This document shows positions 23,912 through 61,555 of a stretch of DNA of 64,000 nt, piece after piece. This stretch comes from a phage. Position numbers and translations under genes: made by a program. Where the stretch lies: sequence record PZ445447.1. One strand, 5' to 3'. Positions within the stretch are counted from its first letter, which is position 1. Every line of letters starts with the position of its first letter. Below the pieces are notes generated by a model. That model was not told where the DNA came from. It saw only the letters and a program-made list of their open reading frames with translations, and did not search any database.

Positions 23912-24240
23912 TAGTCTTCCCCCAGGTTCAAAGGTCCTAAGATTTCATATGCCAGATTAGAAGTTACAAGAGGGTCTTCTGCGTCTTTAGTATTATACCA
24001 CCCGTGAATAACCAGAGTCCCACTTTGTTTCATGTCCAACTGGAACTCTTCTGCCGTTTCCTCATCCAGCTCCAAGATTTCCATAAGGTATTTGATGTTA
24101 GGGAGGTATGCAGCTGTTACAGTCCCCTCTACCAGACCTTCAGGCCAACCTACATCTGGATGACAAGTAGGAACCAGGTTGGTCAGCTTAATGGTGTACG
24201 CTTTTTCTGCACGAGCCTTCAGTAACGGGTCAATCTTCAT
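23911..24240 (-). CDS. hypothetical protein
   Basis: ORF; stop/start overlap with neighbours. Confidence 0.5.
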   Translation of the reverse strand: MKIDPLLKARAEKAYTIKLTNLVPTCHPDVGWPEGLVEGTVTAAYLPNIKYLMEILELDEETAEEFQLDMKQSGTLVIHGWYNTKDAEDPLVTSNLAYEILGPLNLGED

Positions 24241-24590
24241 TATTCGTCCTCCTCTTCGGTACCTGCTTCCAGTAATAAGTTAAGAATATCTTCTGCACAA
24301 GGTTCATAGAACTCTTGGCCTTCATTATCGATGATTTTGTAGTCATCTCCACGAATAATCAGGGGATCACTCTCAAAATTATCGAGACCTTTAACAACGA
24401 CAACACGATCGATTGCCATCATTGTAAGAACTTTATCGACATCTTCCTCTGCTACACCATACTGCAGCAGAATGTCTTTGGTAGGAGGAACAGCATCCAC
24501 CACAACGCCGTTACCAAAACCTTCTGGAAGTTTAGCTAAAATATCTTCCGGAACCACATTCACATCAAAACCGGTAATTTCTACTTTCAT
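24240..24590 (-). CDS. hypothetical protein (MKVE start, acidic C-terminus)
   Basis: 116 aa; possible divergent member of the small paralog family. Confidence 0.55.
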   Translation of the reverse strand: MKVEITGFDVNVVPEDILAKLPEGFGNGVVVDAVPPTKDILLQYGVAEEDVDKVLTMMAIDRVVVVKGLDNFESDPLIIRGDDYKIIDNEGQEFYEPCAEDILNLLLEAGTEEEDE

Positions 24591-24927: not shown

Positions 24928-25323
24928 TTACTGAAACAGTGCGGATAAATTACCTTCTGGTGGGAACTTATCTGCCAAAAACGGTGTTAGCACAGTAGCC
25001 TTCTGAAGATCTGGGGTCCACTCGTTGTTCAGAACATCCCAGTAGTACGCAATGTTGCTGTGTGGGTGCCGCATTACGAACTTTTTCCCTTCGTAGTCAT
25101 CTGAAACCTCTACAGAAGAAATAACAACAGAATCTTCAAGGGTTTCTTCATAGAAGGATCCACCTTCAAATTTCCAACGAGATGCAAGAGCCCCTGCCTT
25201 GAACGCTGCAGATAACGGACTGTCGGCAAGAACATACATTTCTTGCACTCTGTCGCTGCGATCTTTGCTTCTTACGTTGTATACAGTATCTGAGCTATAC
25301 TTAACACGGTATAGGCTTACCAT
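24928..25323 (-). CDS. hypothetical protein, 131-aa paralog copy A
   Basis: shares FV.xHPxS....YW......WTP block with 27135..27533. Confidence 0.55.
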   Translation of the reverse strand: MVSLYRVKYSSDTVYNVRSKDRSDRVQEMYVLADSPLSAAFKAGALASRWKFEGGSFYEETLEDSVVISSVEVSDDYEGKKFVMRHPHSNIAYYWDVLNNEWTPDLQKATVLTPFLADKFPPEGNLSALFQ

Positions 25324-26014: not shown

Positions 26015-26284
26015 TTATTCCTCTACAATCTCATACACATCAGGAGTTACAATCAACTCTTCTCCGTTACCCGGTGCAACAAACACCACCAAACCTTCAG
26101 GTGTGTGCTTTTTAGCCATCTCGATAACATCTTCTCGCAGAGCTGGCTCCATAAGATCAAAACCTTCACCTAGGGCATCACGAACCACCTTCATATAGTC
26201 CACTGGTTGTGCTTCAACAATCATGCCTTCAACCAGTCCACAATTTTTGTCTGCCAGCTCAGTTTGGAATAATTTAATTTTCAT
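26015..26284 (-). CDS. hypothetical protein (MKIK start, acidic C-terminus)
   Basis: 89 aa; ends ...YEIVEE. Confidence 0.55.
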   Translation of the reverse strand: MKIKLFQTELADKNCGLVEGMIVEAQPVDYMKVVRDALGEGFDLMEPALREDVIEMAKKHTPEGLVVFVAPGNGEELIVTPDVYEIVEE

Positions 26285-26421
26285 TTAGAGGTCTCCTCAA
26301 TTATTTGATATTAATAGCCGTAACCTAACACATTAACTACAACTGCGATTGCAAACATAATTTCAAAGCATGCAATCTCTACATTTGGGACTAATTTCTT
26401 AATCACACCCATTGTAGCACC

Positions 26422-26742
26422 TCATTCTCCAAAGTCAATCTTTACTTTGCCTTTCCCCTTACCTTTCTTTCCACCGCATTTAGCCAGCTGACGTGCTGCA
26501 ACATCTACCATACGGTCAGTTGCCTCGTAAGCATCACTGCCTTTAGCCTTGGCAATAACTTCTTTTCCAGAATTGTCAAAAATGAACGCCATAACTTCCT
26601 GGTGATCATTTTCAACTTTTACACTCACACGTGCATAGTTAACAGAGGGATGTAAACGCTCCAGCTTGGACATTTTGCGGGAAATAAAAGATACCATACC
26701 TTCTGTGATTTCTACATTGTTGCCAGTGATTTCAATCTGCAT
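26422..26742 (-). CDS. hpf: ribosome hibernation promoting factor / RaiA-family protein
   Basis: MQIEITGNNVEITEGMVSFISRKMSKLERL... aligns with E. coli HPF MQLNITGNNVEITEALREFVTAKFAKLEQ...; Lys/Gly-rich C-terminal tail. Confidence 0.8.
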   Translation of the reverse strand: MQIEITGNNVEITEGMVSFISRKMSKLERLHPSVNYARVSVKVENDHQEVMAFIFDNSGKEVIAKAKGSDAYEATDRMVDVAARQLAKCGGKKGKGKGKVKIDFGE

Positions 26743-26826
26743 AACGTGTTCCTTTTAAGGAAGAGGGAATAACTATCTCTCTTTGAAAACAATGATACTA
26801 AATCTGAAGCGTTGTGTCAACAGTTT

Positions 26827-27134: not shown

Positions 27135-27533
27135 TCAGTTTAGCTTTTCTTCAACAACCCCATAACTTGGGGCAGAGTCAAGAGCTTTCTGGTTTAAAAG
27201 TGGCGTAGCAGAATCTGCAAACGGTGTCCAAGTTTTTGTTCTGGCATTCCAGTAATGCTTCACTCTGGAATCTGGATGCACTATAACAAAAACTTTTTCA
27301 CTTGTCAACACATTAATTTCTTCTACACCCTTGCTGATAATTTCTCCGTCATAGCCCCCAGTCTGGTATCCTTCGTACCAGGTTCTTGCATAGGCATAGC
27401 CAGCCTGCCAGCATGCAGCCTCCTCCGAGGTGGAGACTACGTAGAAGTCTTTCTCAAATTCTGGAATACGCCCTTGCTTTACGCTCCAAGCCCCGCGAAT
27501 TTTCATTGTAACTTTAAACAGTTTATTTTTCAC
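27135..27533 (-). CDS. hypothetical protein, 131-aa paralog copy B
   Basis: FVIVHPDSRVKHYWNARTKTWTP matches copy A FVMRHPHSNIAYYWDVLNNEWTP. Confidence 0.55.
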   Translation of the reverse strand: MKNKLFKVTMKIRGAWSVKQGRIPEFEKDFYVVSTSEEAACWQAGYAYARTWYEGYQTGGYDGEIISKGVEEINVLTSEKVFVIVHPDSRVKHYWNARTKTWTPFADSATPLLNQKALDSAPSYGVVEEKLN

Positions 27534-27545
27534 AACGGTTACCCA

Positions 27546-27800
27546 TCACAGCTCTACAATATCTGCATCTGACCCTACCCCAAAGGCATAGTAGGACTCT
27601 TCCCCGAAATAATATTCAGGTGCACCAGCGGTGATCAGGTCTGATCCCAAGATAAACACCACGTTGTGGCCTACATAACTGTGATGTTGCCGCACAGGAT
27701 CATCCCACGGCAACCCTTCAAAGTATACCGCAGGAACGACCTTTCCATTCAGGAAGGATTGTCCCAAGTAGACGTTAGAATCAAGAATTTTAACCTTCAT
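27546..27800 (-). CDS. small paralog-family protein
   Basis: MKVKILDSNVYLGQ... shares N-terminus with 27790..28017. Confidence 0.55.
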   Translation of the reverse strand: MKVKILDSNVYLGQSFLNGKVVPAVYFEGLPWDDPVRQHHSYVGHNVVFILGSDLITAGAPEYYFGEESYYAFGVGSDADIVEL

Positions 27801-28017
27801 GATCGTCCTCCACTACCTCTACATCCTCACCTAGGGCAAAGTTATAGGTCCACTGACTGTCAAAGCATTCCTGAGATGCACCAGCGGCAATAAGATCTGC
27901 TCCTTTTATTTTTAAAAGGTCAGGGTAATCTTCGTTATGGACAGCAGTAAACACTTTTCCTACTAAAGGCTCCTGACCAATATAGAAGCTTGAATCTAAA
28001 ACTTTAACTTTCATCAA
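27790..28017 (-). CDS. small paralog-family protein
   Basis: MKVKVLDSSFYIGQ...KIKGADLIAAGA...VEVVEDD. Confidence 0.55.
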   Translation of the reverse strand: MMKVKVLDSSFYIGQEPLVGKVFTAVHNEDYPDLLKIKGADLIAAGASQECFDSQWTYNFALGEDVEVVEDDHEG

Positions 28018-29054: not shown

Positions 29055-29588
29055 CTACAAATGGCAACTGAGGGTGTCAAGAAAATTATCCCGTTCTTTC
29101 TCAGAGTTTTCATGGGTGTAGCTGAAAAACATATCGAGAATAACCTTATTGATATATTCCAGCTCCTCTGTGTTCAGATGCTTAGCAGGATCTACAATGA
29201 CATCCCAAATATCATACAGACCACACTCATGATACCCATAACGCCACTCAATTGTCAAGCTGAGCGGCAAATCTTTACCGTCACAAACAACCTTCCATCT
29301 ACATATGTTGGTATCTGGTCGTATCTGTGCACGGTACACCTGTACAAAATCCAATTTGAATTTGAGGTACTCGTCATACAATTTAAGCACAAAGCTCTCG
29401 ATTTGTGGAGACACTTTTGCAGCAAACTGTGCGTATTTGTACTTGCACTGGATGATCTTTCTGCGTTTTGCAGTTAAATTTTTTGCCGCCAGTTGTTCTT
29501 CAGTGTATCTCCACCTACGATCAACAAACGCAACAGGGTCTTTGTCCCCATAGAGGTCTTCCCAGTTAATCAGAAGCATACCTGTCAC
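29055..29588 (-). CDS. hypothetical protein
   Basis: 177 aa; no motif recognised. Confidence 0.55.
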   Translation of the reverse strand: MTGMLLINWEDLYGDKDPVAFVDRRWRYTEEQLAAKNLTAKRRKIIQCKYKYAQFAAKVSPQIESFVLKLYDEYLKFKLDFVQVYRAQIRPDTNICRWKVVCDGKDLPLSLTIEWRYGYHECGLYDIWDVIVDPAKHLNTEELEYINKVILDMFFSYTHENSEKERDNFLDTLSCHL

Positions 29589-29818
29589 TCCTCCACAACT
29601 TCAAGGCCTTTACCGCCTCGCTCTGGCAGATTACTTAAAGATAGGTAATACATATAATCAGGAGAGATCCTGCCAGACTCTGCACCTGCAGCTAGTAAAT
29701 CCTTCCCTTTAACCAGGACAACATTCTCGTTTGCAGATAGCCGTTTTGCTTCCACAATTTTACCAACACAGTCAACCAAGGAAGGGTACCCTAAATCTGT
29801 AAGAAATTTAACTTTCAT
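29585..29818 (-). CDS. small paralog-family protein
   Basis: MKVKFLTDL...VLVKGKDLLAAGAE...GLEVVEE. Confidence 0.55.
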   Translation of the reverse strand: MKVKFLTDLGYPSLVDCVGKIVEAKRLSANENVVLVKGKDLLAAGAESGRISPDYMYYLSLSNLPERGGKGLEVVEE

Positions 29819-60742: not shown

Positions 60743-60817
60743 GCCCTGTTAGCTTAGTGGATAAAGCAGCGGCCTTCTAAGCCGTTGACACTGGTTCGAG
60801 TCCAGTACGGGGTGCCA
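60743..60817 (+). tRNA. tRNA-Arg (anticodon TCT)
   Basis: manual cloverleaf: acceptor gccctgt/acggggt, D-stem gctt/aagc, anticodon loop cttctaa, T-arm actgg-ttcgagt-ccagt, encoded CCA. Confidence 0.8.
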
Positions 60818-60821
60818 AATT

Positions 60822-60908
60822 GGGGAGTTATCCCGTAGAGGTAGCGGTGTAGACTGTAAATCTATTGTCATTGCGACTCGGGTGGTTCGACTCCACCACT
60901 CCCCACCA
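60822..60908 (+). tRNA. tRNA-Tyr (anticodon GTA), type II
   Basis: acceptor ggggagt/actcccc, anticodon loop ctgtaaa, long variable arm, T-arm ggtgg-ttcgact-ccacc, encoded CCA. Confidence 0.75.
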
Positions 60909-61022
60909 AATTTATATTTTTAGATGCATAAATAATACAGATAATGGCATTGATATTTATCGTCGTTTATACTAGTCACTAACTGCTCGAAAATCAGTGT
61001 CATTATCAGTATAATTTATAAA

Positions 61023-61113
61023 GGAGGGTAGGGAGCAATGGTGCTCAAGCGGTCTTGAAAACCGTCCCGTTGAGGATGACTCGATGATGGTTCGATTCCA
61101 TTACTCTCCGCCA
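61023..61113 (+). tRNA. tRNA-Ser (anticodon TGA), type II
   Basis: acceptor ggagggt/actctcc, anticodon arm gcggt-cttgaaa-accgt, long variable arm, T-loop ttcgatt, encoded CCA. Confidence 0.75.
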
Positions 61114-61211
61114 CATTGTTGACCTTGTAATTAAGCGAAAGCCGGAAGCAGAACCGGATTATCAAATGTTACAGTCGTCATCGCCGACTAGCAACATGGT
61201 CAACATACTGA

Positions 61212-61310
61212 GCTAGGTAAGCCCTTTGGCAAGGGCGAGGATTTTTAATCCTGAAAATAGACGAGGTAGTCGTTGAATACATAGGTGGTTCGATTCCATC
61301 ACCTAGCACC
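61212..61310 (+). tRNA. atypical tRNA-like gene (anticodon ambiguous, TTT if 7-nt loop)
   Basis: acceptor gctaggt/acctagc, D-arm gccc-tttggcaa-gggc and T-arm ggtgg-ttcgatt-ccatc are canonical, but anticodon stem is imperfect and 29 nt lie between anticodon arm and T-arm; 99 nt total. Confidence 0.4.
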
Positions 61311-61315
61311 TTTTT

Positions 61316-61391
61316 GCTGATGTAGCACAATCGGTAGTGCAATTGATTTGTAATCAATAGGTTGTAGGTTCAAGTCCTGCCATCAGCACCA
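61316..61391 (+). tRNA. tRNA-Thr (anticodon TGT)
   Basis: acceptor gctgatg/catcagc, D-stem gcac/gtgc, anticodon arm attga-tttgtaa-tcaat, T-loop ttcaagt, encoded CCA. Confidence 0.8.
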
Positions 61392-61392
61392 A

Positions 61393-61467
61393 GGCCCTGT
61401 AGCTGGAAGGTTCAAGCAAGCGACTCATAATCGCCAGACGGTGGTTCAATTCCACCCAGGGCCACCA
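61393..61467 (+). tRNA. tRNA with CAT anticodon (Met or lysidine-type Ile)
   Basis: acceptor ggccctg/cagggcc, anticodon loop ctcataa, T-arm ggtgg-ttcaatt-ccacc, encoded CCA; 3-bp D-stem and A.C at top of anticodon stem. Confidence 0.65.
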
Positions 61468-61478
61468 AATAGTAAATA

Positions 61479-61555
61479 CTCCGCGTAGCTCAGCTTGGTA
61501 GAGCGCCTGATTTGGGATCAGGAGGTCGAGTGTTCGAATCACTCCGTGGAGACCA
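61479..61555 (+). tRNA. tRNA-Pro (anticodon TGG)
   Basis: acceptor ctccgcg/cgtggag, D-arm gctc-agcttggta-gagc, anticodon arm cctga-tttggga-tcagg, T-loop ttcgaat, encoded CCA. Confidence 0.8.

What the first reader, a model, noticed from the sequence alone, without database searches (positions are those of the whole stretch)
26422..26742. Phage-encoded ribosome hibernation factor (HPF/RaiA) homolog embedded in the paralog array
The ORF is near-collinear with E. coli HPF over its N-terminal half (MQIEITGNNVEITEGMVSFISRKMSKLERL versus MQLNITGNNVEITEALREFVTAKFAKLEQ) and has the short-HPF length plus a Lys/Gly-rich tail. A phage copy could shut down or protect host ribosomes during takeover, or interfere with ribosome-targeting defences. 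It sits among small genes of unknown function, not among metabolic genes.
Basis: partly seen in the sequence, partly recalled or inferred. Interest (0 to 1): 0.65.

Follow-up and report, generated by a model that had tools for sequence, protein, structure and literature searches.

The report
Known phage copy of ribosome hibernation factor
The gene is a real but already published and annotated phage homologue of the bacterial ribosome hibernation factor HPF, found in all rV5-like coliphages and strongly conserved; its function is still unproven, because the one published test found it not stably bound to ribosomes.

Summary
The ORF at 26422-26742 (minus strand, 106 aa) exists. It is a significant member of the HPF/YfiA (Ribosomal_S30AE) family: Pfam E=4e-15, TIGR00741 above cutoff, and 42% identity to E. 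coli HPF over residues 1-90. The AlphaFold model superposes on solved HPFs at 1.0-1.6 A. The window is 100% identical over the 3.5 kb compared to Escherichia phage MaxBurger (Bas54), a Vequintavirus, where the gene is annotated "ribosome hibernation factor". It is rV5 ORF144. Mizuno et al. 2019 reported it as a viral HPF and tested it: expressed in E. coli, it was absent from salt-washed 70S/100S ribosomes and did not change 100S levels. The finding is therefore correct but not new.

- The gene is syntenic in three phage lineages (57-100% aa identity).
- It is under strong purifying selection (dN/dS 0.01-0.11).
- It has its own sigma70-type promoter.
- It differs from cellular HPFs at several ribosome-contact positions. 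R17, K80, K89, T53 and H55 are replaced. K23, K26, R29, R83 and K87 are kept. A 16-18-residue disordered basic tail replaces the end of helix alpha2.

It is not part of the neighbouring paralog families. My best guess is a weak, salt-labile binder of vacant host ribosomes that modulates hibernation; this is inferred, not shown.

The parts
26422..26742 (-). hpf-like CDS, 106 aa plus stop. It equals Bas54_0155 of phage MaxBurger and is the orthologue of rV5 ORF144 (ABI79209).
   Evidence: ORF list; PF02482 E=4e-15; TIGR00741 above cutoff; E. coli HPF structures E~4e-15; annotation in MZ501093 and DQ832317.
26479..26742 (-). [quoted passage not shown]
   Evidence: AlphaFold2 model: mean pLDDT 84; 10-residue block means 93-96 for most of the core, 89 for residues 41-60 and 84 for 81-90; strands 2-8, 34-44, 47-56, 61-68; helices 14-30, 71-90. 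Foldseek best hits are 4hei, 6h4n_x and 2rql, rmsd 1.0-1.6 A.
26425..26478 (-). Basic, Lys/Gly-rich C-terminal tail, residues 89-106 (CGGKKGKGKGKVKIDFGE).
   Evidence: pLDDT <50 for residues 91-96 and 98-106. Net charge +4, against +2 for the 8-residue tail of E. coli HPF and -4 for the 26-residue tail of YfiA. The sequence is not conserved between phage lineages, but all three tails are 16-18 residues with net +3 to +4. One KG-repeat length variant (L013, two residues shorter) was seen within the genus.
26792..26820 (-). Sigma70-type promoter: TTGACA, 17 nt, TATCAT (11 of 12 consensus positions).
   Evidence: Consensus scan. It corresponds to the annotated promoter 'P144' in the rV5 record. 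It is conserved in five rV5-like genomes. This is a sequence match only; no transcript data exist.
26749..26754 (-). Shine-Dalgarno-like AAGGAA, 6-7 nt upstream of the ATG.
   Evidence: Read directly from the sequence.
26761..26783 (-). Leader inverted repeat between the promoter and the ribosome-binding site. It is weakened in this window by a G-to-A change.
   Evidence: Upstream alignment by eye. Folds are -10 to -17 kcal/mol in other rV5-like phages but only -7 kcal/mol (z=-0.5) in the window sequence. Its role is unknown.

Best explanation
This is the hpf-like gene of rV5-like (Vequintavirus) coliphages. It is a vertically inherited, selectively maintained, divergent member of the short-HPF branch of the HPF/YfiA (Ribosomal_S30AE) family.

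Shown here:
- family membership and fold;
- nearest cellular relatives are enterobacterial short HPFs, at only 40-44% identity;
- syntenic conservation in three phage lineages;
- strong purifying selection;
- its own host-type promoter motif;
- a remodelled ribosome-contact surface plus a longer, basic, disordered tail.

Inferred mechanism: the protein is made early by host RNA polymerase. It binds the tRNA/mRNA channel of vacant host 30S/70S particles as HPF and YfiA do. Binding would use the retained helix-1 and helix-2 basic residues (K23, K26, R29, R84, K88) and the basic tail. Affinity would be lower and salt-labile, because several canonical contacts are gone. The likely consequence is competition with host HPF/YfiA/RMF. 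Idle ribosomes would then be kept intact as easily re-activated 70S particles rather than locked as RMF/HPF 100S dimers. This would help a gut phage that often meets slow-growing or stationary cells. Neither the binding nor the direction of the effect has been demonstrated.
For: Family and fold:
- PF02482 56.7 bits, E=4e-15. TIGR00741 56.8 bits, cutoff 40.9.
- The HPF model scores 65 bits against 23 for the RaiA model, so the protein is of HPF type.
- PDB HPF chains match at E~1e-15. The AF2 model superposes on 4hei, 6h4n_x and 2rql at rmsd 1.0-1.6 A.

Origin:
- In 1.84 billion representatives, the only relative above 50% identity is the phage clade itself. The next is an enterobacterial HPF at 44%, E=6e-10.

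Selection and inheritance:
- 119 phage records, all rV5-like, carry it at 93-100% aa identity.
- Homologues at 64% and 57% identity lie in the same block of small genes.
- dN/dS is 0.01-0.11 within the genus, with dS up to 0.9. Between lineages, synonymous sites are saturated (pS~0.8) while pN is 0.22-0.30.
- hpf is one of only two stretches of a 2.1-kb block still alignable at the DNA level between lineages.

Retained binding residues:
- K23, K26, R29, R83 and K87 are family-wide basic positions, K/R in 79-96% of 137 diverse homologues.
- Three of the four residues whose joint mutation abolished ribosome binding in S. aureus HPF (K27, R30, K84, R87; PMC4889938) are kept. The mapping was checked.
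- Overall charge is more basic than E. coli HPF (pI 9.0 against 6.5).

Expression:
- TTGACA-17-TATCAT promoter.

Literature:
- The idea that viral HPF competes with host factors to prevent dimers is the one proposed by Mizuno et al..
Against: The only experiment is negative. rV5 HPF expressed from pBAD24 was detected in crude extract but not in salt-washed 70S/100S fractions, and it had no visible effect on 100S (PMC6375957). The authors themselves list growth phase, salt washing, or genuine loss of binding as possible reasons.

Several canonical contacts are replaced in all phage lineages (contact list from bioRxiv 10.1101/2025.10.07.680626):
- R17 to V (no V among the 137 family members);
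- K80 to V/T/I;
- K89 to G/S/N;
- T53 to F/R;
- H55 to F or D;
- H62 to I/M/L;
- the residue at position 8 is deleted in most phage homologues.

The score is far below the enterobacterial HPF equivalog cutoff (65 against 125 bits). No transcript or proteome timing data for this gene were found.
Confidence: 0.5

Rival explanations
1. Classical hibernation promoter. The phage protein acts like host HPF: with RMF it drives ribosomes into inactive 100S dimers, shutting down host translation or parking ribosomes during takeover.
For: The closest cellular relatives are short HPFs, which stabilise RMF-induced 100S. The core fold and part of the basic track are retained.
Against: Cells expressing rV5 HPF showed no change in 100S, and the protein was absent from the 100S fraction. 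K80 is lost in all phage lineages; it is the equivalent of S. aureus K84, which with R87 was critical for dimerisation. The His55 contact to uS9 is lost. The basic register of the second half of helix alpha2 (positions 89, 91, 93) is replaced by a flexible tail. A lytic phage needs active ribosomes, so a global shut-off factor made from an early promoter would work against it.
Confidence: 0.15
2. Exapted fold. The protein no longer works on the ribosome. It uses the HPF/dsRBD-like fold to bind something else, such as another RNA, a host protein or a nucleotide signal. The precedent is the phage anti-CBASS sponge Acb4, whose fold resembles V. cholerae HPF.
For: It did not co-purify with ribosomes. 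Many positions that are nearly invariant in cellular HPFs are replaced by residues that are themselves conserved across phage lineages: V17, A71, T75, F55, and the KAKG.DAYEATD motif. This suggests selection for an altered interface rather than decay. The Acb4 paper notes structural similarity to 4HEI (PMC11722364).
Against: It is a clear sequence homologue of HPF, which Acb4 is not. Acb4 (PDB 9E4W) is not among the 50 best PDB matches listed by Foldseek (all those with E up to about 0.03), whereas 37 HPF/YfiA chains are. The most conserved RNA-binding residues (K23, K26, R29, R83, K87) are kept. A basic disordered tail is typical of rRNA-threading proteins. It has no PADLOC match.
Confidence: 0.2
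3. Recently captured host gene with no function in the phage: a passenger or decaying copy.
For: Mizuno et al. suggested a relatively recent transfer, on the basis of sequence conservation.
Against: Identity to any cellular HPF is only 40-44%. The gene is present in all 119 related genomes and in two deeply diverged lineages at the same locus. dN/dS is 0.01-0.11. The reading frame is intact everywhere sampled.
Confidence: 0.02

Closest known systems
rV5 gp144 (ABI79209), the 'viral HPF' of Mizuno et al. 2019 (Nat Commun 10:752), and its orthologues in Vequintavirus genomes (PHROG phrog_12469)
   Same: It is the same gene. Identity is 97-100% at the amino-acid level, at the same locus with the same promoter. 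The window is 100% identical over 3.5 kb to phage MaxBurger, where the gene is Bas54_0155, 'ribosome hibernation factor'.
   Different: The window variant carries one extra Asn (GNNVEIT against GNVEIT in rV5).
Enterobacterial short HPF (YhbH; NCBIfam NF007780; PDB 2RQL, 6H4N)
   Same: Same fold and length class. Identity is 42%, collinear over residues 1-90. K23, K26, R83, K87 and D75 are kept.
   Different: It scores 65 bits against the equivalog cutoff of 125. R17, K80, K89, T53, H55, H62, M70 and I74 are replaced. There is one extra residue in the beta3-beta4 hairpin. The tail is 18 residues (+4) instead of 8. No ribosome association was detected under the published conditions.
YfiA/RaiA (protein Y; NF007654)
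   Same: Same family and fold. Its C-terminal extension is longer than that of HPF; in YfiA the extension heads toward the RMF site and YfiA-bound ribosomes stay 70S.
   Different: It scores only 22.8 bits on the RaiA model. The YfiA tail is acidic (net -4) whereas the phage tail is basic (+4).
HPF-like proteins of jumbo coliphages (Cronobacter phage GAP32, Escherichia phage PBECO4; phrog_8990)
   Same: They are phage-encoded S30AE-family proteins with the same fold.
   Different: They form a separate family. The match to phrog_8990 is only E=1e-7 against 1e-69 for phrog_12469, at 23-25% identity. tblastn with this protein did not retrieve them. They are probably an independent acquisition.

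Membership tests
Ribosomal_S30AE / HPF-YfiA family (Pfam PF02482; TIGR00741) | Profile score above the curated cutoff. | tested here: met
   PF02482: 56.7 bits against 23.7. TIGR00741: 56.8 bits against 40.9.
Ribosomal_S30AE / HPF-YfiA family | [quoted passage not shown] | tested here: met
   The AF2 model has this topology with mean pLDDT 84. Foldseek matches 37 HPF/YfiA chains at E<=1e-3, the best at rmsd 1.0 A. Caveat: the input alignment contained cellular HPFs.
Ribosomal_S30AE / HPF-YfiA family | Conserved basic residues on helices alpha1 and alpha2 that contact 16S rRNA. | tested here: inconclusive
   Kept: K23, K26, R29, R83, K87. Lost: R17, K80, K89, and K91 in two lineages. Three of the four S. 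aureus residues K27/R30/K84/R87 are kept. Three of the six alpha2 positions 80/83/87/89/91/93 are kept in register.
Ribosomal_S30AE / HPF-YfiA family | Binding to the 30S decoding region of 70S ribosomes. | not testable with these tools
   The published test on the rV5 orthologue was negative for salt-washed ribosomes from growing cells. Low-salt or stationary-phase conditions have not been tested.
Enterobacterial HPF equivalog (NF007780) | Score above the equivalog cutoff of 125 bits. | tested here: not met
   65.2 bits.
Enterobacterial HPF equivalog (NF007780) | Beta-sheet contact motif: T53/H62 to m2G966, and H55/E60 to the uS9 C-terminus. | tested here: not met
   T53 becomes F/R, H55 becomes F or D, and H62 becomes I/M/L. 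Only the E60 equivalent is kept, and only in the rV5 group.
Enterobacterial HPF equivalog (NF007780) | Stabilises RMF-dependent 100S dimers. | not testable with these tools
   Published: no discernible effect on 100S.
RaiA/YfiA equivalog (NF007654) | Score above the cutoff of 158 bits. | tested here: not met
   22.8 bits.
Long HPF (with C-terminal dimerisation domain) | Folded C-terminal domain of about 60 residues after a linker. | tested here: not met
   The protein is 106 aa, and residues 91-106 are predicted disordered.
Acb4 anti-CBASS sponge family | Structural match to the Acb4 protomer (PDB 9E4W). | tested here: not met
   9E4W is absent from the 50 best Foldseek PDB matches listed (all those with E up to about 0.03). 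The topology described for Acb4 differs.
Neighbouring small-protein paralog families | Detectable similarity to flanking genes. | tested here: not met
   All-against-all BLASTP gives no hit for hpf. hhalign probabilities are 0.1% and 2.3%.

The most novel reading that the evidence does not exclude
The rV5-type protein is not a hibernation promoter but an anti-hibernation factor or decoy. In this reading, the remodelled contact surface gives fast on/off binding to the decoding channel. The long basic tail occupies the mRNA-exit / anti-Shine-Dalgarno region where RMF sits. The phage thereby blocks or reverses RMF/HPF 100S formation, including dormancy-type defences that raise RMF, and keeps ribosomes available for phage mRNAs. 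Alternatively, the fold has been retargeted to a non-ribosomal ligand.
Probability: 0.3. Interest if true: 0.6.

Novelty: already known. Interest (0 to 1): 0.27.

Why it matters
Phage genes that act on the host translation machinery are rare, and their roles are mostly unknown. This gene is a core gene of a large, therapeutically used group of coliphages. It is under strong purifying selection, yet failed the only binding test. Resolving whether it promotes, blocks or bypasses ribosome hibernation would show how lytic phages deal with slow-growing or dormant hosts. As a discovery, however, it is not new. The homology is already in GenBank annotations and in two papers.

Tried and rejected
(1) Is hpf a member of the surrounding 'paralog array'? 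All-against-all BLASTP of 40 minus-strand ORFs and hhalign against two neighbours found no relation. The shared 'M.(I/V)EITG' start with ORF 24240-24590 covers only 14 columns, at 2% probability.

(2) Is the downstream 89-aa gene a second S30AE protein, as some GenBank records say? hhalign gives 0.1% probability and Pfam finds nothing. Rejected.

(3) Is it Acb4-like or defence-related? There is no Acb4 match among the PDB fold hits and no PADLOC match.

(4) Literature searches for newer functional work gave nothing beyond Mizuno 2019 and Mathieu 2020. The searches covered phage HPF, Vequintavirus plus hibernation, and anti-phage plus hibernation. The rV5 genome paper does not discuss the gene in its main text.

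(5) The word-index homologue search with the single protein returned only 5 proteins. A profile seeded with E. coli HPF was needed to obtain an alignment for structure prediction.

(6) The scan of viral contigs gave only 2 loci.

(7) dN/dS between the three lineages could not be computed because synonymous sites are saturated. Only pN and pS are reported.

(8) The overall count of promoter-like sites in the region is not above the shuffled expectation (8 against 7.0). Only the individual 11-of-12 site, conserved in relatives, is used.

Full report
**1. Observation**

It is preceded by AAGGAA 6-7 nt upstream of the ATG. Further upstream is a TTGACA-17-TATCAT motif at 26820..26792, matching 11 of 12 consensus positions.

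**2. Identity of the protein**

- Pfam: Ribosomal_S30AE (PF02482) matches residues 3-89 at 56.7 bits, E=4.2e-15; the gathering score is 23.7.
- NCBIfam: the family-level model TIGR00741 (HPF/YfiA) is passed, 56.8 bits against 40.9. The enterobacterial HPF equivalog gives 65.2 bits against a cutoff of 125. The RaiA equivalog gives 22.8 bits against 158. Neither equivalog is passed.
- PDB sequences: E. coli HPF chains (2rql, 4v8h, 6h4n) match at E~4e-15 over residues 1-90. Identity is 42%.
- Structure: the AlphaFold2 model was built on 40 sequences and has mean pLDDT 84. [quoted passage not shown]
- Fold search: Foldseek places V. cholerae and E. coli HPF first (rmsd 1.0-1.6 A). All 37 matches with E<=1e-3 are HPF/YfiA/pY chains.

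The protein is therefore a genuine family member of the short, HPF-like type, but not an equivalog of host HPF or RaiA.

**3. Source genome and prior knowledge**

The 3.5 kb around the gene is 100% identical to Escherichia phage MaxBurger (MZ501093, locus tags bas54_), a Vequintavirus. There the gene is bas54_0155, 'ribosome hibernation factor'.

- tblastn finds it in 119 phage records, all rV5-like apart from one Salmonella genome record that matched through its own cellular HPF (42%), at 93-100% aa identity. It is annotated variously as sigma-54 modulation factor, RaiA or HPF.
- In the rV5 record (DQ832317) it is ORF 144, with an annotated sigma70-type promoter P144.
- Mizuno et al. 2019 (PMC6375957) list rV5 ABI79209 and five relatives as virus-encoded HPF. 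They placed these among gammaproteobacterial HPFs and proposed that viral HPF might compete with host homologues to prevent ribosome dimers.
- They also tested it. Expressed from pBAD24 in E. coli NM522, the protein was detected in crude extract. It was absent from 70S/100S fractions isolated under high-stringency salt, and 100S abundance did not change. They named growth phase, loss of binding, or salt washing as possible reasons.
- Mathieu et al. 2020 (PMC6969025) again note hpf in rV5-like phages.

The finding is correct but already known.

*Origin.* Against 1.84 billion representatives, the only cluster above 50% identity is the phage clade itself (P0004, 64-66% depending on the alignment). 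The best cellular relative is an enterobacterial short HPF at 44%, E=6e-10. This is a long-separated lineage, not a recent capture.

*Inheritance.* Two deeper phage lineages carry it: P0004 at 64% and P0055 at 57% identity, on contigs of 21-137 kb. It sits at the same position in the same block of small genes. In a 2.1-kb comparison of that block with rV5-like genomes, hpf and part of the next gene are the only stretches still alignable at the DNA level, at about 70% identity.

*Selection.* Within the genus, Nei-Gojobori dN/dS is 0.01-0.11, with dS up to 0.9 (for example 35 synonymous against 7 non-synonymous differences). Between lineages, pS is about 0.8 (saturated) and pN is 0.22-0.30. The core evolves more slowly than the tail.

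*Interface.* I aligned the phage proteins with 137 diverse family representatives and used three sources for contact residues:
- the contact residues described for E. coli and E. hormaechei HPF (bioRxiv 10.1101/2025.10.07.680626);
- the S. aureus mutagenesis (PMC4889938);
- a numbering check against the S. aureus structure sequence.

| Position (E. coli numbering) | Family state | Phage state |
|---|---|---|
| K23, K26, R29, R83, K87 | K/R in 79-96% | kept |
| D75 | D in 94% | kept |
| R17 | K/R in 84% | V (0% in the family) |
| K80 | K/R in 75% | V/T/I |
| K89 | K/R in 91% | G/S/N |
| K91 | K/R in 91% | S/T in two lineages |
| T53 | m2G966 contact | F/R |
| H55 | uS9 contact | F or D |
| H62 | m2G966 contact | I/M/L |
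| E51, M70, I74 | conserved | M/S, A, T |
| position 8 | K/R/H in most | deleted in most phage homologues |

These replacements are themselves conserved across the phage lineages. That points to an altered but selected surface.

*Tail.* Helix alpha2 ends at about residue 90. It is followed by a disordered tail of 16-18 residues with net charge +3 to +4 in all three lineages. The tail sequence is not conserved; the KG repeat is specific to the rV5 group. E. coli HPF has 8 residues (+2) and YfiA has 26 residues (-4).

*Expression signal.* The promoter motif is conserved in five rV5-like genomes.

*Context.* Two small paralog families lie nearby: 24928-25323 with 27135-27533, and 27546-27800 with 27790-28017 and 29585-29818. 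hpf is unrelated to any neighbour, and the neighbours have no Pfam match.

**5. Mechanism**

The shown steps are family membership, fold, selection, synteny, the promoter motif, and the pattern of kept and lost contact residues.

The inferred steps are as follows. The protein is made early by host RNA polymerase. It occupies the decoding channel of vacant host ribosomes through the retained alpha1/alpha2 basic residues plus the basic tail. Binding is weaker and salt-sensitive. This would reconcile the negative salt-wash experiment with strong purifying selection.

I consider competition with host HPF/YfiA/RMF the most likely consequence. Ribosomes would be kept as protected, quickly re-usable 70S particles rather than as 100S dimers. 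Three things favour this direction:
- K80, whose S. aureus equivalent K84 was critical (with R87) for dimerisation, is lost;
- the longer tail is positioned like the YfiA tail, which heads toward the RMF site;
- a lytic phage needs active ribosomes.

My confidence that it acts on ribosomes at all is about 0.65. My confidence in this specific direction is lower. The overall confidence of 0.5 covers the committed statement.

**6. Rivals**

- A classical 100S promoter or shut-off factor (0.15). The published null effect on 100S and the lost contacts argue against it.
- Exaptation to a non-ribosomal ligand (0.2). The failed co-purification, the remodelled surface and the Acb4 precedent (PMC11722364) support it. 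Against it are the retained RNA-binding residues and the absence of any Acb4 fold match.
- A functionless passenger (0.02). This is refuted by selection and synteny.

**7. Comparison and novelty**

It is the same gene as rV5 gp144 (phrog_12469). It belongs to the HPF/YfiA family, is not an HPF or RaiA equivalog, and is distinct from the jumbo-phage S30AE proteins such as GAP32 and PBECO4 (phrog_8990). Novelty: already known.

Interest is low to moderate. The homology is textbook-level annotation. The unresolved function, the remodelled interface and the conserved basic tail remain a reasonable experimental question.

Noticed in passing
window 24928-25323 and 27135-27533; 27546-27800, 27790-28017 and 29585-29818 (all minus strand): There are two families of small paralogous proteins of unknown function in the block around hpf. 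The first pair is 28% identical (E=9e-10). In the second family, two members are 40% identical (E=3e-15) and one of these matches the third member at 32% (E=4e-7). None has a Pfam match.
   Followed up: partly
window 26015-26284 (-), the 89-aa gene downstream of hpf: Several GenBank records (e.g. phages navn, nomine, S127 BCL3) annotate this gene as a second 'sigma 54 modulation factor'. hhalign against the HPF profile gives 0.1% probability and Pfam finds nothing. This is probably an annotation slip. Other records label hpf itself 'ATP-dependent protease La type I'.
   Followed up: yes
GenBank MG065635-MG065690 ('Campylobacter phage' C12, C14, C2, A112b and others): Eighteen records labelled as Campylobacter jejuni phages match; those listed are 97.9-99.7% identical to E. 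coli rV5-like phages across this region. The host assignment looks doubtful.
   Followed up: no
window 60743-61555 (+): There is a cluster of seven tRNA genes (Arg-TCT, Tyr, Ser, Thr, Met, Pro). One is atypical, at 61212-61310: ARAGORN reports a four-base anticodon, and the Rfam tRNA score is only 35.5 bits.
   Followed up: no
window 26761-26783 (-), and the equivalent leader in L010, L003 and L011: An inverted repeat AAGAGGG...CCCTCTT, followed by a T-rich run, lies between the hpf promoter and the ribosome-binding site. It folds at -10 to -17 kcal/mol in other rV5-like phages (z=-2.8 and -3.6 in two of them). In this window a G-to-A change weakens it to -7 kcal/mol (z=-0.5). It could be a leader stabiliser or an attenuator.
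   Followed up: partly
window 26716-26721 (codons 8-9 of hpf): The window variant reads GNNVEIT, the same spacing as cellular HPFs. rV5, most other rV5-like phages and both deep phage lineages read GNVEIT, one residue shorter, at a position that is K/R/H in most of the family.
   Followed up: partly
window 26411-26438 (-) and ORF 26311-26412 (-): A promoter-like TTGACT-16-TACAAT with an extended -10 TG lies inside the 3' end of hpf. It sits directly in front of a conserved 33-aa hydrophobic ORF (rV5 ORF145).
   Followed up: no
protein P0122: This 1160-aa protein in the representative library has eight separate stretches matching the phage HPF (31% identity, E=5e-9). It may be a tandem multi-HPF-domain protein.
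   Followed up: no
whole window against MZ501093: The offset between window and MaxBurger coordinates is +74370. The window end would therefore fall at 138370, beyond the 136346-bp record. The window either wraps around the permuted genome end or comes from a near-identical genome.
   Followed up: no
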